The notes: generated by a model from the letters alone, not told the origin. 64,000 nt of DNA from Candidatus Kerfeldbacteria bacterium (GCA_016214565.1 JACROE010000002.1:856007-920006), one strand, 5' to 3'; numbered from the stretch's first letter, positions 16,958 through 62,967 are shown. Numbers and translations are program-made.

Positions 16958-19900
16958 ATGAATATCTTCGATAATCTGAATACAGCCCAGCGCCAGGCCG
17001 TGACGCACACTGACGGGCCGCTCTTGATCGTGGCCGGCGCCGGTACTGGCAAAACCACGGTGGTGACCCAGCGTATCGCTTGGTTGGTATTGGAAAAGAA
17101 AGTTCCTACGGATAATATTCTCGCCCTGACTTTTACGGAGAAAGCCGCCGGTGAAATGGAAGAGCGGGTGGATGTACTCTTGCCCTATGGCTATGTGGAT
17201 TTGTGGATTTCCACATTCCACTCATTTTGCGAACGGATATTGAAGGACAGCGCTATTGAAATTGGTTTGCCGCCGGATTTCAAGTTGCTTAATGAAACAG
17301 ACCAGGTGATGCTGGTGCGCAGGAATCTAGACCGGTTTGACCTCAATTATTACCGTCCTTTAGGTAATCCCACGAAATTCGTCCAGGCACTGGTCAAGCA
17401 TTTCAGCCGGGCAAAAGACGAAAACGTACTACCGGAAGATTATTTAGCATACGCCAAAACCCTGCAAATGGATCGGGACGACGCAGAAAATACCAAAAAG
17501 AAACGAGTGGATGAGGAAGAGGAAATTAGTGAAGAGCAACGTATCAAAGAAGTGGCGAATGCCTATCATATTTATCAGCAGTTATTATTGGAGCAAGGTG
17601 CGCTCGACTTTGGTGATTTGATTTTATATACCATTAAGTTATTCAAATCGCGGCCAAAGATTTTAGAAAGGTACCGCAAACAATTTCAATATCTTTTGGT
17701 GGATGAATTCCAGGACACGAACTACGCGCAATATGAATTAGTGAAAATGTTGGCGCAGCCAAAGAATAATGTGACCGTGGTCGGGGATGATGATCAGTCA
17801 ATATATAAATTCCGTGGTGCCGCTATTTCAAATATTTTAGAGTTTAAAAAAGATTTTCCTGATTCAAAAGAAGTGGTACTGACGGAAAACTACCGCACTC
17901 GGCAGAACATTCTGGATTTATCCTATCGCTTTATCAAGCAGAATGACCCGAACCGTTTGGAGTATCAATTGTCAAAAGGGAAGATTGATCCGAAAGGCGC
18001 ACCATTGAAAACCAAAATCAGCAAGAAATTGAAATCCACACGCGAGGGCGAGGGGAGTATCCAGCATCTACATTTCCACTCCCATCTCGAGGAAGCCGCT
18101 GGGGTGATGAAGCGGATTATTGAACTACAAGCGGGACAACCCTCCGCCAGAGGCGGATCCGGCTCCGCCGGAAAGCTAAAATGGAGCGACTTTGCAATTC
18201 TCATCCGCGCCAATAGTTACGCTAATGAGTTCATGACTGCCGCGACTCGGCTACAAGTGCCGCATCAGTTTCTCGCGTCACGGGGATTGTACAGCCAGCC
18301 GGAGATTATGGATATCGTGGCGTATTTGAAATTATTGGACAGCTATCATGAATCTGCTGCCATGTGGCGCGTGCTTAATTTTTCCCATTGGAAACTGCCC
18401 ATCAAAGATCTGATGGCGTTGTCCCAGCGCGCCTACAAGAAACGCATGTCCCTGTATGAAGCCGTTTCGCAGTCGCGACTAATCGCCGGCATTTCGAAAG
18501 AGATGCATCAGGCATTGGAAAAAATATTGAAAATGATTGAGGCGCATACTGAGTTGGCTCGCGTGAAGGGAGTGCTGACGGTGGCACTGCGGTTTATGAA
18601 AGACTCGGGGTACCTGAAGCACATCACCGAAGTAAAAGGAGACGAACATATTGAACAGGTTATTCATTTGAATCAGTTTTTCCGGAAGATTGAGGATTTT
18701 GAAAATAAAAATGATGATAATTCAGTGCGGCATTTCCTAGAGGAATTTGACGAAGAGCAGGAGTCAGGGGACAGTGGTGCGATGCACCAGCCCTGGGAGG
18801 AGGGACCGGACGCGGTGAAAATTATGACTGTCCATGGCGCCAAAGGCCTGGAGTTTCCCTATGTCTTCATCGTTAGTTTGGTGGACAAACGTTTTCCCTC
18901 GATCGAGCGCAAAGATCCTATTGAATTGCCTGAAGACTTGATCAAGGAAATAATTCCCGAGGGCGATATCCATCTGCAGGAGGAGCGCCGTTTATTTTAC
19001 GTAGGCATGACCCGCGCCCGGGACGGACTTTTCTTCACCTCAGCCGATGACTACGGCGGTACGCGGAAGAAAAAATTGTCACGCTTTTTGACTGAGCTTG
19101 GGTTTGAGCGAAAAGAATCGACCGAGGAATTTGATACCGTCGAGCGGTTGTCGCCAGCGCCAGAGTCACTCAAAGGCAAGCCGGAGATTTCCTATCTTCA
19201 GCAATCAATTCCAGAAAAAGCCAGCTACACCCAGCTCAAGGCATTTGAGACCTGCGCTAAGCAATACAAGTACGCCCATATTTTGAAAGTGCCGGTGGAG
19301 GGCCGTCACACCTTCAGTTTCGGCAAATCCATGCACAACACGTTGTTTCACTTTTTCAAACTAATTCAGGAGCGCAGTGCCACGGTACAGGTAGATTTAT
19401 TTGGCAAACCAGCTACAAAAAAAGACGCGGTGGTCAGTGAAGAAGAGTTGATGCAGTTGTACGACCGTGAGTGGATCGACGACTGGTATTTGTCCAAAGA
19501 GCATCGCGAAGAATATTATGCCAAAGGCAAGACGTCACTCCACGAATTTTTTGAGGCGCAACAACCGAATTTTCCCGTACCAGTGAATCTAGAGCAGCCG
19601 TTTAATCTGAAATTAGGGGAGTACACCTTCAAAGGCGTGATTGATCGGATCGATCCCGTTGGCAATGATCCGAAGACCGTGGAAATTGTAGACTACAAAA
19701 CCGGTCGTATCCCAAAAGGCAACAAACTTACCCCGGATGATAAGGAACAATTGATGATTTACGATTTGGCAGCCCGCGAGGTGTTTGGCTTGCAGCCCGT
19801 GACACTGTCGTATTATTATTTAGAAAATAATACCAAGCTGTCCTTTAGTCCGGATGAAGCGGATTTGAAAAAATTGCGTGAGAGTTTGCAGGAGCAGATC

Positions 19901-19996
19901 GTGCAAATCCACCAGAGCGACTTTGCTGCCAACCCAGGGTTCTGGTGCGCCCAATGCGATTTTCGGGATATTTGTGAAGATCGGTGGAGGGGGTAA
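16958..19996 (+). CDS. UvrD/PcrA-family SF1 helicase fused to a C-terminal PD-(D/E)xK Cas4/AddB-like nuclease with an Fe-S Cys cluster
   Basis: Helicase motifs: AGAGTGKT, DEFQDTN, and a UvrD C-terminal domain (VHGAKGLEFPYVFIV). The tail carries ...CAKQYKY...VDYKTG...CAQCDFRDICEDR, characteristic of RecB-like nuclease plus 4Cys. Confidence 0.75.
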   Translation: MNIFDNLNTAQRQAVTHTDGPLLIVAGAGTGKTTVVTQRIAWLVLEKKVPTDNILALTFTEKAAGEMEERVDVLLPYGYVDLWISTFHSFCERILKDSAIEIGLPPDFKLLNETDQVMLVRRNLDRFDLNYYRPLGNPTKFVQALVKHFSRAKDENVLPEDYLAYAKTLQMDRDDAENTKKKRVDEEEEISEEQRIKEVANAYHIYQQLLLEQGALDFGDLILYTIKLFKSRPKILERYRKQFQYLLVDEFQDTNYAQYELVKMLAQPKNNVTVVGDDDQSIYKFRGAAISNILEFKKDFPDSKEVVLTENYRTRQNILDLSYRFIKQNDPNRLEYQLSKGKIDPKGAPLKTKISKKLKSTREGEGSIQHLHFHSHLEEAAGVMKRIIELQAGQPSARGGSGSAGKLKWSDFAILIRANSYANEFMTAATRLQVPHQFLASRGLYSQPEIMDIVAYLKLLDSYHESAAMWRVLNFSHWKLPIKDLMALSQRAYKKRMSLYEAVSQSRLIAGISKEMHQALEKILKMIEAHTELARVKGVLTVALRFMKDSGYLKHITEVKGDEHIEQVIHLNQFFRKIEDFENKNDDNSVRHFLEEFDEEQESGDSGAMHQPWEEGPDAVKIMTVHGAKGLEFPYVFIVSLVDKRFPSIERKDPIELPEDLIKEIIPEGDIHLQEERRLFYVGMTRARDGLFFTSADDYGGTRKKKLSRFLTELGFERKESTEEFDTVERLSPAPESLKGKPEISYLQQSIPEKASYTQLKAFETCAKQYKYAHILKVPVEGRHTFSFGKSMHNTLFHFFKLIQERSATVQVDLFGKPATKKDAVVSEEELMQLYDREWIDDWYLSKEHREEYYAKGKTSLHEFFEAQQPNFPVPVNLEQPFNLKLGEYTFKGVIDRIDPVGNDPKTVEIVDYKTGRIPKGNKLTPDDKEQLMIYDLAAREVFGLQPVTLSYYYLENNTKLSFSPDEADLKKLRESLQEQIVQIHQSDFAANPGFWCAQCDFRDICEDRWRG

Positions 19997-20125
19997 ATAA
20001 CTATCCTCATGCTGAATCAAGTCCTGAGTAAACGAAGGATCCCAGCATCTCATGTGAGATCCCGAAATTGATCCTGATATTCATCAGGACTTCCAGGTTC
20101 GGGATGGGGACTATACAAAATAAGT

Positions 20126-20416
20126 ATGGCAAAAAAACTAGGAGATTTATTACAACGAAGCATCAGGTCGGCGGGGATTGATAAAGAAGTCAATGCGGCG
20201 ATCGTCTGTACTGCGTTTGATCGGTTATTGGAGGAAAAATACCCCCGGTTGCATGGCCAAGCCCAGGCAAAATTCGTGAAAAATGGTACGCTCACGATTG
20301 CCGTTATCAGCTCGGTGGTAGCCCAGGAAATCAAATTGCGAGAGATGGATATCCTTGATTTTCTTCAGGGAAAATTTGGCGAACAGATGGTGCAGCGGCT
20401 ACGATTTCAGGTGTAA
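20126..20416 (+). CDS. DUF721 / DciA-like small protein
   Basis: 96 aa with a pattern typical of DUF721 proteins that usually sit near gyrB/recF. gyrB lies 4.4 kb downstream. Confidence 0.45.
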   Translation: MAKKLGDLLQRSIRSAGIDKEVNAAIVCTAFDRLLEEKYPRLHGQAQAKFVKNGTLTIAVISSVVAQEIKLREMDILDFLQGKFGEQMVQRLRFQV

Positions 20417-20459
20417 TTTATTGGCTAATATTAGCCCCATATAAACGTGTCAGGAATGC

Positions 20460-20488
20460 TTGGCAGGTGAGGTTTTTTCTGGTATAAT
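20460..20488 (+). promoter_or_regulatory. Near-consensus sigma70 promoter TTGGCA-17-TATAAT
   Basis: TTGGCA at 20460-20465 and TATAAT at 20483-20488. Lies upstream of the membrane protein/pheS genes. Confidence 0.5.
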
Positions 20489-20531
20489 TTCAGCAGGTTA
20501 GACTGCCTATTTTTTTTCACCAAAAGCTCCC

Positions 20532-20918
20532 ATGTCCCTGAAAAAGTACCTCATTATCATGACCACCGCCACGCTGGTTTCCTGGATTGCCTGGTTGTTT
20601 GTTTTCTTTTTTATCAATCCAAACGAAGCGGGATTCGTCGGTTTTGGGCTATTTTACCTCAGCATGCTATGCGCTTTGGTTGGGACGTTTTCACTGTTTG
20701 GCTTCTTTGTTCGAGTGTGGTTTACCAAGGAGCAAGTAATATTTCGGCACCTCGGGGTGGCCACGCGGCAGTCATTTTTCTTTTCGATTTTGATTATTGG
20801 CACCCTGATGCTACAAGGGGCACGGATGCTCCAGTGGTGGACGGTGCTACTTTTGATTCTTTTTCTTACTATCATGGAATTTTTCTTTATTTCCCGAGCC
20901 GCGCCGCGGCGAAATTAG
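20532..20918 (+). CDS. Polytopic small membrane protein (hypothetical)
   Basis: 128 aa with 4 predicted TM helices. Confidence 0.4.
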   Translation: MSLKKYLIIMTTATLVSWIAWLFVFFFINPNEAGFVGFGLFYLSMLCALVGTFSLFGFFVRVWFTKEQVIFRHLGVATRQSFFFSILIIGTLMLQGARMLQWWTVLLLILFLTIMEFFFISRAAPRRN

Positions 20919-20921
20919 TCT

Positions 20922-21929
20922 ATGCATGATACGCTGAAAAAAATTCAACAGGAAACACTGCACCGGCTGACAACGATTTCGAGCCAAGCTGAATTGGAGT
21001 CTTTGGAGATTGCGGTGCTTGGCCGTAAAGGTTCACTGGCTGCGGCTATGCGGCAGATTACCGATTTGCCGGTGAGTGAACGCCCTCGCGCTGGCCAGCT
21101 GGCGAATCAGGTGAAACAAGAAATTACCCGAGCGATTGTTGCTGCCAGTAAACGATTTGCGCGCGGTGCTGAACAGGTGCCGGTCATTGACGTGACCTGG
21201 CCGGGTGCGGCGTATCCCCTGGGGCACATTCATCCGATTACGCAATTTGTCAACGAGATCGTAGATATTTTTAGTGGTATGGGATTTTCTGTGGTTGAAG
21301 GCACCGAGGTTGAAACTGCCGAATACAATTTTGACTTGCTCAATATCCCGAAAAATCATCCAGCGCGTGATCTCTGGGACACCTATTACATTGAAAAGAA
21401 TTTATTACTGCGAACGCATACCTCGCCGGTCCAGCTGCGCGCCATGACGAAATTGAAAGCGCCAGTGCGCATTATTGCTCCGGGACGCGTCTTCCGCCAT
21501 GAAGCCACTGACGCCGGACATGAATCGATGTTTTACCAGTGCGAGGGTTTGGTGATCGATAAACATATTTCCGTGGCACATCTGATCGGTACTTTGGATC
21601 AATTATTGAAAGCGGTGTATGGCAAACAGGTAAAGACCCGCGTGCGACCTGAGTATTATCCGTTTGTCGAACCAGGATTAGACGTGGACATGCAGTGCTT
21701 GATTTGCAATGGCGTCGGCTGCTCGGTGTGCAAACAGCGCGGCTGGCTGGAAATGCTGGGCTCGGGCATGGTGCATCCGCAGGTGCTGAAGAATATGGGC
21801 GTGGATCCCGAAAAATATTCTGGGTTCGCTTTTGGTCTGGGCATCGATCGGCTGATGATGCTGAAACACGGAATCAATGATATCCGCCTGTCATACAGCG
21901 GGGATCTCAGGTTTCTTGAGCAGTTTTAG
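20922..21929 (+). CDS. pheS: Phenylalanine--tRNA ligase alpha subunit
   Basis: Class II aaRS motifs (FRHEATDAGHESMFYQCEGL, GLGIDRLMML). Confidence 0.92.
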   Translation: MHDTLKKIQQETLHRLTTISSQAELESLEIAVLGRKGSLAAAMRQITDLPVSERPRAGQLANQVKQEITRAIVAASKRFARGAEQVPVIDVTWPGAAYPLGHIHPITQFVNEIVDIFSGMGFSVVEGTEVETAEYNFDLLNIPKNHPARDLWDTYYIEKNLLLRTHTSPVQLRAMTKLKAPVRIIAPGRVFRHEATDAGHESMFYQCEGLVIDKHISVAHLIGTLDQLLKAVYGKQVKTRVRPEYYPFVEPGLDVDMQCLICNGVGCSVCKQRGWLEMLGSGMVHPQVLKNMGVDPEKYSGFAFGLGIDRLMMLKHGINDIRLSYSGDLRFLEQF

Positions 21930-21999
21930 TTTTGAGAAGGTAGTAAAGATGAGTAGCTTGTGTAGAGTTTTATGAGTAGGTAGCTCGAAGGAGTAGGTT

Positions 22000-22418
22000 G
22001 TAAGTAGTTATTAAGAGAAAAATTGTGGCGAAAAATTTCGAAAATTTAAAAGTCTGGCAAGAAAGCGTTGATTTGGTGAGTTTAATTTATCGTGAAACAA
22101 AAAGATTTCCTCAAGCTGAACAATTTGGGTTAACCAGTCAGATTAGGCGTGCCGTTGTCTCTGTGCCATCGAATATTGCTGAGGGAGCCGGACGGTCATC
22201 CAGGCCAGAATTTATCCGATTTATTAATATTTCCCTAGGTTCTCTCAATGAAGTTGAAAGTTTGATACATGTATCGGTGAAACTTAATTTTATTTCAGAG
22301 AAAACCTTTCAACAATTAAAAGATAAAATTAATCAACTAGGTATTTCATTAGGTGCGTTTAAAAGGTATTTAGCACACCATTCATAAACTACCTTCTACA
22401 ATCTCTTAAACTACTTAC
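22000..22418 (+). mobile_element. IVS-like cassette carrying one four-helix-bundle gene, bounded by roughly 18-bp inverted repeats
   Basis: Left arm GTAAGTAGTTATTAAGAGA (22000-22018) and right arm TCTCTTAAACTACTTAC (22403-22418) are reverse complements (17/19). A second inverted pair GAAGGTAGT (21936-21944) / ACTACCTTC (22388-22396) is present. The flank carries reiterated GAGTAGG motifs. Confidence 0.45.
22025..22387 (+). CDS. Four-helix-bundle protein (23S rRNA intervening-sequence protein family, TIGR02436-like), GTG start
   Basis: 120 aa with hallmark motifs: LKVWQ..., FP..E.FGLTSQIRRA..S...NIAEG..R.S..EF..F..I.LGSL.E. Confidence 0.75.
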   Translation: MAKNFENLKVWQESVDLVSLIYRETKRFPQAEQFGLTSQIRRAVVSVPSNIAEGAGRSSRPEFIRFINISLGSLNEVESLIHVSVKLNFISEKTFQQLKDKINQLGISLGAFKRYLAHHS

Positions 22419-22423
22419 TCATC

Positions 22424-24775
22424 ATGCTGCTCCCAATCAAATGGCTCAAAGAATACGTGACAGTCAAGCAAACGCCAGCCCAGGTGGCGGAAGTGTTGAC
22501 CTTGGCGGGATTTGAGGTGGAGCGCATTATTCCGCCGAATCACGCGTTGGACGCGGTGGTCGTGGGCGAGATTAAAACGATTATTGATCATGCTGAGGCA
22601 GATCGTTTGTGCGTCTGTACGGTGGCGATTGGCAAGCGCGGCACCGAAACTATTGTCTGTGGCGCGAAAAACATCAAGCCAGGGGACAAAGTACCAGTGG
22701 CCTTGCCTGGCACTACGTTGCCAAATGGTATGACGATTGAGAAACGGATGATCCGCGGAATAGAATCACACGGCATGTTGTGTGCGGCAGATGAACTAGG
22801 ACTCGGAGATGATCATGGCGGAATTTTTATTCTTGATGCTAGCGCACCATTGGGACAGAAATTACCCGTGACATTAGGTCTGCATGACGCAGTTTTGGAT
22901 ATCAATGTGCCGCCGCAGCGTGCGGACGCGCAATCCTTAATTGGTATGGCACGCGAGTATGCCGCGTTGACCAATCAAACCGTTAAGCTCCCGAAAGTGA
23001 CAATCGCCGAAGCCAAAGGCCGCCAACAGAAATTCACGGTCAAAGTCCGCGATACCGTCGGTTGCCCGAAATACACGGCGCGGGTATTGCGCAATATTAC
23101 CGTCGGTCCGTCACCGGTGTGGCTGCAAAACCGATTGCGCGCTGCCGGACATACGCCGATTAATAATATTGTTGACGTGACTAATTTTGTGATGCTGGAA
23201 ATGGGCCAGCCAATGCATGCCTTTGATGCAGAACATATTGAAGGGCATACCATAATCGTAAAAACAGCCGGCCGCGCCCAATCGTTTGTTACCCTGGATG
23301 GCGTGGAGCGGAAATTACCCAGCACTGCCTTGATGATTAATGACGCGAAAAAAACATTAGCCATTGCCGGCATCATGGGTGGCCAGCAGACGGCTATTTC
23401 AAACAAGACGAAAACAATTGTATTAGAATCAGCAATTTTTAAACCGTTATCTGTCCGCATAACCCGCCAGCATCTATCGTTAGCCACCGATGCCTCAATG
23501 CGTTTTGAGCGCTGCATCTGGTGGGGATTGCCGGAAGCAGCACTTGATCGTGCCACGCAATTGATTCAGGAATGCGCCGGTGGCGTGGTTGCCTCGCCGC
23601 GCATTATCGTGGCTCGCCAGCCGGTGGAAAAATCAAAAACGGTGGCAGTCAATCCAGAAACCATCCGCCAATTAATCGGCACGGCTATTGCTGATGCGGT
23701 GATGCAAAAATCATTAGAGCGATTAGGTTTTGTTGTTGCTGTAAAACGTCCTGACCAATGGCAGGTGAGCGCGCCGGCCTGGCGCAGCGATATTCATCTG
23801 ATGGCGGATGTGGTGGAAGAAATTGGGCGCAGCTATGGTTGGAATCGATTAGCCGCCAAACCATTAGCCCATGCTTCACAACCGGTGGCGCATGCACCGG
23901 AATTCTTGGCACGCAGGCGGGTGGTCAATATTTTACGCGCGTGCGATTTGATTGAAACGTATAATTATTCGACGTATGGCGCCGATGTCATTGAGCAGTT
24001 TGACTGGGAGACGAAGGATCATTATCAAGTGATGAATCCGATGAATGCCGAGCAGGCATATCTGCGTATGAGTTTAGTGCCCGGATTATATTTAAATCTT
24101 TTACAAACGTATCAAGAGCGGCCGCAGCTTCAGCTCACCGAGATTGGTCGGGTTTTTTACAAAACAAATCGTCCTATGCCTGAGGAGCGCGTGATGATCG
24201 CGGCGTTGCTGTATGATCGTACGGCCAAGCGCGGCACGCCCGGCCCGATTCATGAATTGCAGGGTATCATACAGACCCTAGTCAAAGAATTAGGCATTTC
24301 ACTTAATGAATTGCAATTCGCCGTTAATTCTGACCGGGCTCGGGTGGTTGATGTCATGCTCGGGGGGAGTATCATCGGCTGGTACGGTTGGTTGATCCAG
24401 CACGAGCAAAAGCTAGGCGTTCCGCCAGTGTGGTTTGAAATTGATCTAGCAAAATTAATGAGCCATGTTCCTGCGGTGCGACGCTATCAGCCGATCGTTA
24501 ATTATCCGAGCGTGATTCGCGATATGACCTTTGCCACGCCTATTGCGGTTTCATTTTTCAAAATGCGCGATGCAATACAGAATATGTCACCTTTGATTCA
24601 GAGCGTGGAAGCACGCGCGGTGTACCCACTGGATGAGGCTACGCGGCGCGCTACTATTCGCATTAAATATCAGTCTGCCGAGCGTACGTTGCACACCGAT
24701 GACGTGGATTCCCTCCAAACCAAGATTGTCAGTATGATGGAGCACCATTTCCAAGCAATTCTTGCCGAAAAATAA
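22424..24775 (+). CDS. pheT: Phenylalanine--tRNA ligase beta subunit
   Basis: 783 aa with N-terminal tRNA-binding, B3/4, B5 and anticodon-binding domains. The WLKEYV start motif is present. Confidence 0.9.
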   Translation: MLLPIKWLKEYVTVKQTPAQVAEVLTLAGFEVERIIPPNHALDAVVVGEIKTIIDHAEADRLCVCTVAIGKRGTETIVCGAKNIKPGDKVPVALPGTTLPNGMTIEKRMIRGIESHGMLCAADELGLGDDHGGIFILDASAPLGQKLPVTLGLHDAVLDINVPPQRADAQSLIGMAREYAALTNQTVKLPKVTIAEAKGRQQKFTVKVRDTVGCPKYTARVLRNITVGPSPVWLQNRLRAAGHTPINNIVDVTNFVMLEMGQPMHAFDAEHIEGHTIIVKTAGRAQSFVTLDGVERKLPSTALMINDAKKTLAIAGIMGGQQTAISNKTKTIVLESAIFKPLSVRITRQHLSLATDASMRFERCIWWGLPEAALDRATQLIQECAGGVVASPRIIVARQPVEKSKTVAVNPETIRQLIGTAIADAVMQKSLERLGFVVAVKRPDQWQVSAPAWRSDIHLMADVVEEIGRSYGWNRLAAKPLAHASQPVAHAPEFLARRRVVNILRACDLIETYNYSTYGADVIEQFDWETKDHYQVMNPMNAEQAYLRMSLVPGLYLNLLQTYQERPQLQLTEIGRVFYKTNRPMPEERVMIAALLYDRTAKRGTPGPIHELQGIIQTLVKELGISLNELQFAVNSDRARVVDVMLGGSIIGWYGWLIQHEQKLGVPPVWFEIDLAKLMSHVPAVRRYQPIVNYPSVIRDMTFATPIAVSFFKMRDAIQNMSPLIQSVEARAVYPLDEATRRATIRIKYQSAERTLHTDDVDSLQTKIVSMMEHHFQAILAEK

Positions 24776-62246: not shown

Positions 62247-62322
62247 GCCGTTGTAGCTCAGTTGGTAGAGCAACTCCATGGTAAGGAGTAGGTCGCCGGT
62301 TCAATTCCGGCCAACGGCTCCA
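62247..62322 (+). tRNA. tRNA-Thr (anticodon GGU), CCA encoded
   Basis: Cloverleaf: acceptor GCCGTTG/CAACGGC, D arm GCTC-AGTTGGTA-GAGC, anticodon loop AT-GGT-AA, T arm GCCGG-TTCAATT-CCGGC. Confidence 0.85.
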
Positions 62323-62471
62323 CGCCTTCTCTATTGCCTCGGGTTGCGCGCGACGAATCAAGTTCGCCTCGCTCCACCCTCGGCAATGAGCCGGCTTTTC
62401 CGAAATAATGTGTACATTATTTCGGTGGGGAACAGCAAGAGGTGTTTGTTCGTATCATTTACATCATATCT

Positions 62472-62558
62472 GGGCGGATACCGAAGTGGTCAAACGGGGC
62501 AGACTGTAAATCTGCTGGCCTTGCGCCTTCGTAGGTTCGATCCCTACTCCGCCCACCA
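62472..62558 (+). tRNA. tRNA-Tyr (anticodon GUA), long variable arm, CCA encoded
   Basis: Acceptor GGGCGGA/TCCGCCC, anticodon loop CT-GTA-AA, 14-nt variable arm, T arm GTAGG-TTCGATC-CCTAC. Confidence 0.85.
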
Positions 62559-62572
62559 GCCCCGTACAATGA

Positions 62573-62645
62573 GCCAGCGTAGCTCAGTTGGTAGAGCAGC
62601 TGTTTTGTAAACAGCAGGTCGGGGGTTCGAATCCCTTCGCTGGCT
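62573..62645 (+). tRNA. tRNA-Thr (anticodon UGU), no encoded CCA
   Basis: Acceptor GCCAGCG/CGCTGGC, anticodon stem GCTGT/ACAGC with loop TT-TGT-AA, T loop TTCGAAT. Confidence 0.8.
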
Positions 62646-62705
62646 ATGTCAAAATTGTGCTGAATTTGATACGTCAATTTGAAATAACCATAAGCAATAA
62701 ATACT

Positions 62706-62861
62706 ATGTCACAGGATAATTTAATAAAATTTGAATGCACGGAGTGCCACCGCATTAATTATCATTCACGAAAGAATAAAAAAAACGTGAAGGATCGCAT
62801 TGAACTGAAAAAGTTCTGCAAATGGTGCAAAAAGCACACGATGCACAAAGAAACAAAATAG
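62706..62861 (+). CDS. rpmG: 50S ribosomal protein L33 (not in the ORF track)
   Basis: 51 aa [51 protein letters not shown], with the CxxC...CxxC zinc ribbon and KNKKN...RIELKKFC signature of L33. Confidence 0.85.
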
Positions 62862-62892
62862 GCGGATACGAGCGCGGTTTTGTTTTTTGCCA

Positions 62893-62967
62893 GGGGCTAT
62901 AGTTCAATGGCTAGAATAGCGGTCTCCAAAACCGTTGATCGAGGTTCGAGTCCTCGTGGCCCCGCCA
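62893..62967 (+). tRNA. tRNA-Trp (anticodon CCA), CCA encoded
   Basis: Acceptor GGGGCTA/TGGCCCC, anticodon loop CT-CCA-AA, T arm CGAGG-TTCGAGT-CCTCG. Confidence 0.85.

What the first reader, a model, noticed from the sequence alone, without database searches (positions are those of the whole stretch)
21930..22423. An IVS-type four-helix-bundle gene cassette with terminal inverted repeats sits between pheS and pheT
pheS and pheT are normally adjacent and translationally coupled. Here a 363-bp gene of the TIGR02436 four-helix-bundle family lies between them, normally found inside 23S rRNA intervening sequences. The cassette is flanked by reverse-complementary arms of about 18 bp (22000-22018 / 22403-22418) and by a second inverted pair (21936-21944 / 22388-22396). 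By analogy with rRNA intervening sequences, the arms could form an RNase III-processed stem, excising the cassette RNA and separating the pheS and pheT messages. The element could also be a small mobile cassette that targets conserved operons.
Basis: partly seen in the sequence, partly recalled or inferred. Interest (0 to 1): 0.6.

Follow-up and report, generated by a model that had tools for sequence, protein, structure and literature searches.

The report
Hairpin-enclosed four-helix-bundle gene inside pheST
A small gene best known from spacers inside ribosomal RNA genes sits between the two phenylalanyl-tRNA synthetase genes of a Patescibacteria genome, enclosed by complementary repeat arms. 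It has been kept there, arms included, across distantly related Patescibacteria.

Summary
A 120-codon PF05635/TIGR02436 gene (22025-22387) lies between pheS and pheT.

This copy is an old resident, not a recent insertion. Eight of the ten closest homologues looked up sit at pheS|pheT in other Patescibacteria. 4HB identity tracks PheS identity, and dN/dS is about 0.1. Several relatives have contiguous pheST. One has a frameshifted cassette of another subfamily at the same junction. One near-identical cassette, arms included, sits elsewhere.

The architecture is family-wide. In 79 members, flank complementarity far exceeds that of neighbouring genes. The arms are often tandem 7- or 8-nt repeats with the same period on both sides. 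The 5' arm is G-rich in 46 of 51 loci. None of 80 sampled loci lies in an rRNA gene.

Best reading: a promoter-less, IVS-type hairpin cassette co-transcribed with pheST. RNase III excision is inferred, not shown. I rate it a new variant of a known kind.

The parts
20460..20488 (+). Best sigma-70-like promoter match upstream of the operon (small ORF 20532-20918, then pheS). It is the likely source of the transcript that carries the cassette.
   Evidence: TTGGCA-17-TATAAT, 11 of 12 matches, with an extended -10 TG. This is a consensus match only. No promoter-like or terminator-like site lies inside 21930-22423.
20922..21929 (+). pheS (PheRS alpha subunit). Its stop codon TAG (21927-21929) directly abuts the 5' arm.
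   Evidence: PF01409 E 2.4e-96 and PF02912.
21930..22018 (+). 5' arm region. It is C-poor (G/A/T) and rich in GTAG. It holds about three degenerate copies complementary to the 3' arm: distal 21930-21968, middle 21969-21995 and proximal 21996-22018. It has stop codons in all three frames.
   Evidence: direct repeat D1, inverted repeats I1, I3, I4, I6, I18. (3 C in 95 nt). (register energies -30.9, -25.1, -24.9). (13 stops spread over the three frames).
22019..22024 (+). Short A/T-rich leader (AAAATT) between the proximal arm and the GTG start. There is no Shine-Dalgarno sequence.
   Evidence: for the sequence; anti-SD duplex only -2.9 kcal/mol, and the genome rarely uses SD (7 of 43 genes).
22025..22387 (+). 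Four-helix-bundle (IVP / TIGR02436) gene, 120 aa, GTG start. GC is 36% and GC3 is 26%.
   Evidence: The N-terminus (V/M)AKNFENL aligns with MAKNYENL of the homologues. dN/dS is 0.08-0.19 against orthologues. GC3.
22388..22423 (+). 3' arm. It is G-free (C/A/T), starts at the base after the ORF stop and ends at the base before the pheT ATG. It contains no ATG, GTG or TTG.
22424..24775 (+). pheT (PheRS beta subunit). It has no SD-like sequence upstream.
   Evidence: B3_4, B5, tRNA_bind, FDX-ACB domains. (anti-SD duplex +2.4 kcal/mol).

Best explanation
The 494-nt insert is a resident cassette of the intervening-sequence (IVS) type. It is a promoter-less gene for a four-helix-bundle protein, relative of the DGR protein Avd. 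The gene lies in the loop of a long-range RNA stem. That stem forms between a C-poor, stop-codon-rich, repeat-built 5' arm and a G-free 3' arm.

Shown:
- The cassette has no promoter or terminator match of its own and points the same way as pheS and pheT, so it is most simply co-transcribed with them.
- The arms fill the whole spacer, from the pheS stop to the pheT ATG.
- The arms are predicted to pair across the ORF in every cassette of this clade.
- The ORF is under strong purifying selection.
- The cassette has mostly been inherited vertically at pheS|pheT in part of the Patescibacteria. There have been losses, at least one relocation of ORF plus arms together, and one occupation of the same junction by another subfamily, which I read as independent.

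Inferred:
- In the transcript the stem brings the end of pheS next to the start of pheT.
- A double-strand-specific RNase (RNase III, as for rRNA IVSs) cuts the stem. That would release a hairpin-ended 4HB mRNA and separate the pheS and pheT messages.
- The composition of the arms insulates translation. A C-free 5' arm stops ribosomes from pheS in any frame. A G-free 3' arm offers no start codon before the pheT AUG.
- Arms built from short tandem repeats can pair in several registers, so pairing survives indels.

The biochemical role of the protein is unknown. By homology it is probably a pentameric ring that binds nucleic acid.
For: Family and anatomy.

No promoter or terminator match inside the cassette. 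No Rfam family.

Long-range stems: 23-45 pairs enclose the ORF in WIN (the window's own cassette), L003, L006, L009, L011 and L017. Ensemble pairing of the 3' arm with the 5' flank is 0.45-0.81 in nine cassettes.

Own arms pair better than arms swapped between loci: -33.4 against -26.5 kcal/mol, permutation p = 0.0006.

Same position elsewhere: L003, L006, L009, L109, L111, L112, L113.

Co-divergence: the 4HB tree reproduces the PheS groups, and pairwise identities correlate (Spearman 0.69, p = 6e-4).

dN/dS is 0.08-0.19.

Relocation: P0014 (L011) lies between tRNA-Arg and a CCA-adding enzyme gene. It is 75% identical to the pheST copy P0008 (L111) and carries the same GTTGA-repeat style of arm as the related pheST copy L109.

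The arm supplies the pheS stop in L009 and L112.

Family-wide, in 79 loci:
- Flank complementarity has median 13.5 against 7.5 for neighbouring ORFs. 66% exceed the neighbours' 95th percentile (Mann-Whitney p = 1e-18).
- Arm sequences differ between loci but stay self-complementary.
- Tandem 7- or 8-nt repeats occur with the same period in both arms.
- The 5' arm has G>C in 46 of 51 loci.
- Both neighbours are co-directional in 32 of 54 loci.

Precedent for RNase III cutting an IVP-bearing stem: PMC4990558.
Against: - No RNA data exist, so stem formation and cleavage in vivo are untested.
- The window's own arms are only moderately better than chance and show no detectable tandem repeat.
- Alignment-based covariation could not be done, because the arms are low-complexity and do not align.
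- Swapped arms also pair fairly well (-26.5 kcal/mol), so part of the signal is shared composition.
- Sense-strand pairing beats antisense in only 6 of 9 cassettes. RNA-level rather than DNA-level selection is therefore not proven.
- Burial of the pheT AUG in the stem is not consistent: P = 0.01-1.0, against 0.34-0.93 in relatives without the cassette.
- GC3 of the ORF stays at 0.17-0.34 whatever the host GC3. That sits awkwardly with long vertical residence unless selection keeps it AT-rich.
- An RNase III gene was not found in the 64-kb window. The rest of the genome could not be read.
Confidence: 0.55

Rival explanations
1. The stem is not cut. It acts as a translational device inside an intact polycistronic mRNA. 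It holds the pheS stop and the pheT start together, so termination-reinitiation coupling survives the 494-nt insert. The alternative registers would tune access to the 4HB and pheT start codons.
For: Relatives without the cassette have overlapping or nearly touching pheS stop and pheT start: TAATATG in L027 and a 3-nt gap in L021. The genome rarely uses SD (7 of 43 genes) and pheT has none. The arms run exactly from stop to start. Three registers of similar energy exist.
Against: Predicted pairing of the pheT AUG varies from 0.01 to 1.0 among cassettes and is no higher than in cassette-less relatives. The same kind of arms flanks family members with no upstream co-directional gene, such as L011, which follows a minus-strand tRNA. 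No case of coupling across a stem of this size is known to me.
Confidence: 0.2
2. The arms are DNA-level terminal inverted repeats of a small non-autonomous mobile element (MITE-like). A transposase or recombinase encoded elsewhere would move it, and the 4HB gene is cargo.
For: The family is scattered over many unrelated gene junctions (PMC3936711; PMC5524665). One cassette moved with its arms. A different subfamily occupies the same junction in L026. Several loci carry two 4HB genes within 3 kb. The cassette's GC differs from its host's.
Against: - Arm sequences are not conserved across the family. Only their complementarity and repeat build are. That is unlike transposase-binding ends.
- I saw no target-site duplication at the borders.
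- The window holds no second copy of the ORF or arms.
- The pheS|pheT copies co-diverge with the host.
- G-rich 5' and C-rich 3' arms relative to the ORF in 46 of 51 loci point to a constraint tied to the transcript.
Confidence: 0.1
3. The 4HB protein is a functional partner or regulator of phenylalanyl-tRNA synthetase in these bacteria. The operon position reflects co-function, and the flanks are incidental spacers.
For: The gene order pheS-4HB-pheT is conserved in eight lineages, with purifying selection on the ORF.
Against: None of 97 other family loci has pheS or pheT nearby. Close homologues sit next to unrelated genes. Many relatives with PheS 45-58% identical to the window's lack the gene. 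The flanks are not incidental, because complementary repeat arms are a family-wide trait.
Confidence: 0.08
4. Chance. An ordinary small gene whose low-complexity spacers happen to be complementary.
For: The whole-region fold has z = -0.32. 22 of 500 random window places give a duplex as stable.
Against: Composition-preserving shuffles match it only 2 times in 500. The same architecture recurs in all eight pheST cassettes and in 66% of 79 family members, against 5% of neighbouring genes.
Confidence: 0.02

Closest known systems
ORF-bearing intervening sequences of 23S rRNA genes (Leptospira, Coxiella burnetii, Xanthomonas, Brucella; Ralph & McClelland 1993; PMC4990558)
   Same: Same protein family (PF05635, also called S23p or IVP). 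Similar size: 494 nt here against 428-444 nt in Coxiella. The ORF is in the sense orientation of the host transcript. Terminal complementary sequences enclose the ORF in a stem. GC is lower than in the host. There is no promoter of its own.
   Different: The host transcript is an mRNA operon (pheS|pheT), not an rRNA helix. The arms are strand-asymmetric (C-poor 5', G-free 3'), repeat-built and multi-register. The ORF is under strong purifying selection, whereas Coxiella S23p is decaying and apparently not made. RNase III cutting is shown for rRNA IVSs and only inferred here.
23S_rRNA_IVP genes reported inside cas operons (Zhang, Doak & Ye 2014, PMC3936711; also listed in PMC10910872)
   Same: A PF05635 gene tightly wedged between two co-directional genes of an operon. 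An example is cmr3-IVP-cmr2 in Pleurocapsa, with gaps of 85 and 5 nt. F. columnare shows gmk-4HB-nadD with gaps of 35 and 33 nt (PMC5524665, table 5).
   Different: Those reports read the position as a functional association with CRISPR-Cas or as a phage region. They did not describe flanking complementary arms. I did not examine those loci myself.
Hairpin-forming miniature repeats co-transcribed into mRNAs, such as the Neisseria Correia elements whose inverted ends are cut by RNase III (recalled from the literature, not checked here)
   Same: They are inserted in transcribed intergenic spacers. Their terminal inverted repeats fold in the mRNA and are processed by RNase III, which changes the fate of the message.
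   Different: Correia elements are non-coding, have conserved ends and target-site duplications, and occur in hundreds of copies. Here the element carries a conserved gene, its arms vary in sequence, no duplication was seen, and the 64-kb window holds one copy.
Avd, the accessory protein of diversity-generating retroelements
   Same: Homologous four-helix-bundle fold. Weak hits to bAvd (24.7 bits) and DivGenRetAVD (39 bits). The homology is noted in PMC10053308.
   Different: Both scores are below the curated cut-offs (40 and 80). There is no reverse transcriptase, template repeat or variable repeat next to the gene.
Integron gene cassettes
   Same: A promoter-less single ORF with a structured, imperfectly palindromic element, expressed from an outside promoter.
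   Different: In integrons the palindrome (attC) lies wholly downstream of the ORF and is a recombination site for an integrase. Here the two arms lie on either side of the ORF, and no integrase or attI is present.

Membership tests
PF05635 / TIGR02436 four-helix-bundle (23S rRNA IVP) protein family | Score above the curated cut-offs of the family HMMs | tested here: met
   PF05635 scores 130.8 bits against a cut-off of 33.8. TIGR02436 scores 121.8 bits against 24.
PF05635 / TIGR02436 four-helix-bundle (23S rRNA IVP) protein family | Conserved motif (G..R...S...N..E; SNIAEGxGR here) and sequence relation to the solved member Xcc0516 | tested here: met
   Alignment A1 has invariant S46, N50, A52, E53, G54 and R57. 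2GSC matches at E 6.6e-26 over residues 5-111. The motif is cited in PMC3936711.
PF05635 / TIGR02436 four-helix-bundle (23S rRNA IVP) protein family | Homopentameric ring of four-helix bundles | not tested
   Inferred from 2GSC only. I ran no structure prediction or assembly test.
23S rRNA intervening sequence (IVS) | Located inside an rRNA gene (helix 25 or 45 of 23S rRNA) | tested here: not met
   It lies between pheS and pheT. The window has no rRNA match and the cassette matches no Rfam family.
23S rRNA intervening sequence (IVS) | Terminal complementary sequences that form a stem enclosing the element | tested here: met
   This rests on prediction only.
23S rRNA intervening sequence (IVS) | Excised from the primary transcript by RNase III without re-ligation | not testable with these tools
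23S rRNA intervening sequence (IVS) | Sporadic distribution among related hosts | tested here: met
   Lineages with and without the cassette are interspersed on the PheS tree.
Diversity-generating retroelement (Avd component) | Avd-specific HMM above its cut-off, with an adjacent reverse transcriptase and template/variable repeats | tested here: not met
   DivGenRetAVD scores 39 against a cut-off of 80. bAvd scores 24.7 against 40. The neighbours are pheS and pheT only.
MITE-like non-autonomous transposable element | Conserved terminal inverted repeats, target-site duplication, many copies per genome | tested here: inconclusive
   Arm sequence is not conserved across the family. I saw no duplication at the borders. 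The 64-kb window has no second copy, but the other ~1 Mb of the genome was not available.
Known anti-phage defence systems (PADLOC) | Match to a defence-system protein model | tested here: not met
   No hit.

The most novel reading that the evidence does not exclude
IVP/four-helix-bundle genes would be the cargo of a widespread, undescribed class of hairpin-bounded gene cassettes. The arms of these cassettes are complementary arrays of 7- or 8-nt tandem repeats, G-rich on the 5' side and C-rich on the 3' side. Such cassettes would live inside any steadily transcribed unit, including rRNA genes, tRNA-synthetase operons and cas operons. They would be cut out at the RNA level and would spread as a unit. 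Spread might go through an RNA or cDNA intermediate that uses the Avd-like protein with a reverse transcriptase supplied in trans. The classical rRNA IVS would then be just one habitat of this element.
Probability: 0.12. Interest if true: 0.85.

Novelty: new variant of a known kind. Interest (0 to 1): 0.64.

Why it matters
The origin and purpose of ORF-bearing rRNA intervening sequences have been open since 1993. This locus shows the same gene-in-a-hairpin unit living in a messenger RNA operon, and three things follow.

First, it becomes testable whether RNase III-type excision also operates on mRNAs. Patescibacteria are a useful case because they largely lack Shine-Dalgarno-led initiation.

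Second, here the protein is clearly kept by selection (dN/dS about 0.1). In Coxiella it is decaying.

Third, the family-wide rules found here are concrete, checkable signatures: complementary arms, matching 7- or 8-nt tandem repeats, G-rich 5' and C-rich 3' asymmetry, and tight wedging between co-directional genes. They would let such cassettes be recognised automatically.

The result also warns against guilt-by-association annotation. IVP genes reported as CRISPR-associated, phage-associated or PheRS-associated may simply be cassettes sitting in a transcribed spacer.

Tried and rejected
1. pheT AUG burial. A first MFE fold suggested the stem buries the pheT AUG. Ensemble probabilities vary from 0.01 to 1.0 among cassettes and are similar in relatives without the cassette. 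I dropped this as a general feature.

2. Sense against antisense duplex energy, as a test for RNA-level selection. Sense is better in 6 of 9 clade members. In the broad set it is better in 24 against 15 loci, p = 0.15. Inconclusive.

3. Alignment-based covariation. The arms are low-complexity and do not align, so I replaced this with own-versus-swapped arm energies.

4. Micro-variation among contigs encoding identical proteins. There were no differences in the arms or ORF, so this gave no information.

5. Rfam. Nothing at gathering level. The only sub-threshold hit was UnaL2 at E 4.7, which I take as chance.

6. PADLOC. No hit.

7. RNase III gene in the window. A tblastn search found none. This says nothing about the rest of the genome.

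8. Hairpin 'scar' in the empty pheS|pheT spacer of L023. The fold is only -1.4 kcal/mol, so there is no scar.

9. Target-site duplications. None is convincing. Several loci repeat TTTAG or TTAG at the pheS stop, but nothing matches at the other end.

10. RNAduplex on 120-nt flanks. It gave over-long duplexes and a wide null, so I replaced it with local alignment scores.

11. The first run of that analysis timed out.

12. Scan of genome contigs with PheS. It returned only 11 loci, which limits the presence/absence map.

Full report
WHAT IS IN THE WINDOW.
pheS (20922-21929) and pheT (22424-24775) are separated by 494 nt. The spacer holds one ORF, 22025-22387, of 120 codons with a GTG start. It scores 130.8 bits on PF05635 (23S_rRNA_IVP) and 121.8 bits on TIGR02436, far above both cut-offs. 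It matches the solved four-helix-bundle protein Xcc0516 (2GSC) at E 6.6e-26. Scores for the DGR protein Avd are below their cut-offs, and PADLOC gives nothing.

The insert is about 35% GC, against about 52% for the flanking genes. The 95-nt 5' flank has only 3 C. The 36-nt 3' flank has no G and runs from the base after the ORF stop to the base before the pheT ATG. The exact protein is annotated as coming from a Candidatus Kerfeldbacteria MAG on a 1.1-Mb contig.

THE ARMS.
22000-22018 pairs with 22402-22418 as 10 + 8 bp around a 2-nt bulge (-18 kcal/mol). 21935-21944 pairs with 22388-22397 as 10/10. These two pairs cross each other, so they cannot be two layers of one stem.

The 5' flank contains about three degenerate copies of a sequence complementary to the single 3' arm. 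This gives three registers of similar strength: -30.9, -25.1 and -24.9 kcal/mol. One MFE fold chooses the distal register.

On its own the window's signal is moderate. The duplex is -37.1 kcal/mol against -24.4 +/- 4.1 for shuffles (2 of 500), and 22 of 500 random places in the GC-richer window do as well. The whole-region fold has z = -0.32. No promoter-like or terminator-like site lies inside the cassette. The best promoter match is upstream at 20460-20488. No Rfam family matches.

THE SAME CASSETTE IN OTHER GENOMES.
The closest homologues are only 53-65% identical, and those that carry a source name are from Patescibacteria. I looked up ten, counting the window's own. Eight lie between pheS and pheT:
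- the window itself (L001/L002)
- L003 (P0003)
- L006 (P0018)
- L009 (P0024)
- L109 (P0005)
- L111 (P0008)
- L112 (P0028)
- L113 (P0004)
.

Every one has a C-poor, GTAG/GAAGG-type 5' flank that starts at the pheS stop. Every one has a G-poor 3' flank that ends at the pheT ATG. In L009 and L112, pheS has no stop at the usual place. It reads nine codons into the arm, and the arm supplies the stop.

MFE folds place 36-45 long-range pairs around the ORF in WIN (the window's own cassette), L003, L006 and L009, and 37 and 23 in the non-pheST cassettes L011 and L017. In the ensemble, 3' arm nucleotides pair with the 5' flank with mean probability 0.45-0.81 in all nine cassettes. Own arms pair better than arms swapped between loci: -33.4 against -26.5 kcal/mol, permutation p = 0.0006. 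The swapped value is itself strongly negative, because the arms share one motif family.

OLD RESIDENT, NOT A FRESH INSERTION.
The 4HB tree reproduces the PheS groupings: (WIN, L003, L113), (L109, L111) and (L009, L112). Pairwise 4HB identity correlates with PheS identity (Spearman 0.69, p = 6e-4, pairs not independent). dN/dS is 0.08-0.19, so the protein is expressed and under selection.

The distribution is nevertheless patchy. Relatives whose PheS is 45-52% identical to the window's over its full length have contiguous pheS-pheT, with gaps from an overlap up to 61 nt (L020, L021, L027). More distant ones (L022-L025) are also contiguous.

The closest PheS relatives of the window include L019, which has a different ~350-nt insert. 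They also include L018, which has a GTAG-type 5' arm followed by another ORF before the contig ends. L026 (Beckwithbacteria) carries a 4HB gene of another subfamily at the same junction. It is 30% identical, frameshifted, and has AT-rich arms of its own. Its close relative L023 (PheS 82% identical) has an empty spacer with no hairpin scar.

P0014 (L011-L016) is 75% identical to the pheST copy in L111, and its GTTGA-repeat arms resemble those of the related pheST copy L109. It lies between a minus-strand tRNA-Arg and a CCA-adding enzyme gene. ORF and arms therefore moved together at least once. P0022 (L017) sits upstream of a Mg-chelatase-like gene, with different but still complementary arms.

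A FAMILY-WIDE ARCHITECTURE.
A metagenome scan gave 80 more distant members, 38-56% identical. Across the 79 loci with usable flanks (73 of these plus the window and five of the loci above), local complementarity between the 120 nt upstream and the 120 nt downstream of the ORF has median 13.5. The median is 7.5 for 204 neighbouring ORFs. 66% exceed the neighbours' 95th percentile (Mann-Whitney p = 1e-18). The window scores 13.0. Cross-locus pairs score like the neighbours, so arm sequences differ between loci while each stays self-complementary.

In the 52 clear cases:
- The arms are about 30 nt long.
- The 5' arm ends about 28 nt before the start codon.
- The 3' arm begins about 14 nt after the stop.
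- The 5' arm has more G than C in 46 of 51 loci (p = 2e-9).

The arms are often tandem arrays of short units. L095 has (GTGAGGC)x7.1 upstream and (ACGCCTC)x5.4 downstream. L036 has (AAGGTCAC)x8.1 and (ACTCTGTG)x13.4. L003 has period 7/14 on both sides. Periodicity at lags 5-11 far exceeds that of neighbouring-gene flanks (p about 1e-17 and 1e-15). Where both arms are periodic, the period is the same in all 12 loci: 7, 8 or 6 nt. The window's own arms are a degenerate version, and TRF finds no repeat there.

Both neighbours are co-directional with the 4HB gene in 32 of 54 loci, with median gaps of about 60-70 nt. None of the 80 loci lies in an rRNA gene. Metagenome assemblies do under-represent rRNA operons. 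None of 97 further loci contains pheS or pheT.

HOW IT MOST LIKELY WORKS.
Shown:
- The gene is promoter-less, in sense orientation and selectively maintained.
- It is enclosed by arms that are predicted to pair and that fill the spacer from stop to start.

Inferred:
- The cassette is transcribed with pheST.
- The arms zip up once the 3' arm is made.
- A double-strand-specific RNase cuts the stem, as RNase III does for the Coxiella and Leptospira IVSs (PMC4990558). That would free a hairpin-ended 4HB message and separate the pheS and pheT messages.

The arm composition suggests insulation of translation. A C-free 5' arm is dense in stop codons in all three frames. A G-free 3' arm has no ATG, GTG or TTG before the pheT start; six of the nine cassettes have none, by my reading of the sequences. 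Neither arm can fold stably on itself. This matters in a genome where only 7 of 43 genes have an SD-like sequence. Repeat-built arms can pair in several registers, so pairing tolerates indels.

Three things remain unexplained. One is why the ORF keeps a GC3 of 0.17-0.34 in hosts whose GC3 ranges from 0.20 to 0.57. Another is why pheS|pheT is the favoured site in Patescibacteria. The third is what the protein does.

COMPARISON WITH WHAT IS KNOWN.
The unit works like an ORF-bearing rRNA IVS. It fails the defining criterion of lying in an rRNA gene, so it is an IVS-like cassette in an mRNA, not an rRNA IVS.

The literature I could search describes IVP genes in four settings:
- in rRNA IVSs (PMC4990558)
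- in the rRNA insertions of CPR bacteria (10.1101/2024.02.27.582315)
- as members of cas loci, for example cmr3-IVP-cmr2 with gaps of 85 and 5 nt (PMC3936711; also listed in PMC10910872)
- inside a 'phage region' as gmk-4HB-nadD (PMC5524665)

I found no description of complementary repeat arms outside rRNA, or of the pheS-4HB-pheT arrangement. The library is limited to open-access papers, so prior description cannot be excluded.

VERDICT.
I rate it a new variant of a known kind, with interest 0.64. That score rests on the conserved operon position, the selection on the ORF and the family-wide arm rules. It is tempered by the complete lack of RNA-level evidence.

Noticed in passing
L019 4545-4895; L018 1892-2114: The two closest PheS relatives of the window carry other things at the pheS|pheT junction. 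L019 has a ~350-nt insert with a 57-codon hydrophobic ORF. L018 has a GTAG-type 5' arm followed by a non-4HB ORF before the contig ends. Both contain a similar small hairpin (CGACTTNAGTCG). The junction looks like a recurrent landing place.
   Followed up: partly
L026 4542-4972: A Beckwithbacteria genome has a 4HB gene of another subfamily between pheS and pheT. It is 30% identical and frameshifted near codon 100. Its own AT-rich complementary arms (AAATTGTT-type, period 8) are retained. The close relative L023 has an empty 46-nt spacer.
   Followed up: yes
L009 3962-3991; L112 2959-2988: In these two genomes pheS lacks a stop at the usual position and reads nine codons into the 5' arm, which supplies the stop. 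Their PheT (589 aa) also lacks the N-terminal tRNA-binding domain present in the window's PheT.
   Followed up: partly
window 22025-22387 and orthologues: GC3 of the 4HB ORF stays at 0.17-0.34 whatever the host GC3 (0.20-0.57 in pheS and pheT). This holds even though the cassette appears to co-diverge with its host and dS is saturated. I have no explanation.
   Followed up: partly
whole window: Only 7 of 43 long ORFs have an SD-like sequence upstream. This genome largely initiates translation without Shine-Dalgarno pairing.
   Followed up: partly
L039, L043, L049, L053, L074: Five metagenome loci carry two 4HB genes within about 0.5-2.5 kb of each other, so the family can be locally multi-copy.
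   Followed up: no
L095 133-232 and 1680-2134: This locus has an SAH riboswitch about 1.5 kb upstream of a 4HB gene. That gene's arms are near-perfect heptamer arrays, (GTGAGGC)x7 and (ACGCCTC)x5.
   Followed up: partly
L114-L130: Seventeen IMG/VR viral contigs encode family members (36-60% identity). I did not examine their contexts or arms.
   Followed up: no
window 62247-62964: A cluster of four tRNA genes on the + strand (Rfam).
   Followed up: no
window 16958-20918: The upstream neighbourhood is conserved with L003. It comprises a 1012-aa UvrD-type helicase with a C-terminal PD-(D/E)XK nuclease domain, a DciA-family gene, and a 128-aa hydrophobic ORF with no Pfam match directly before pheS. 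gyrB follows pheT.
   Followed up: no
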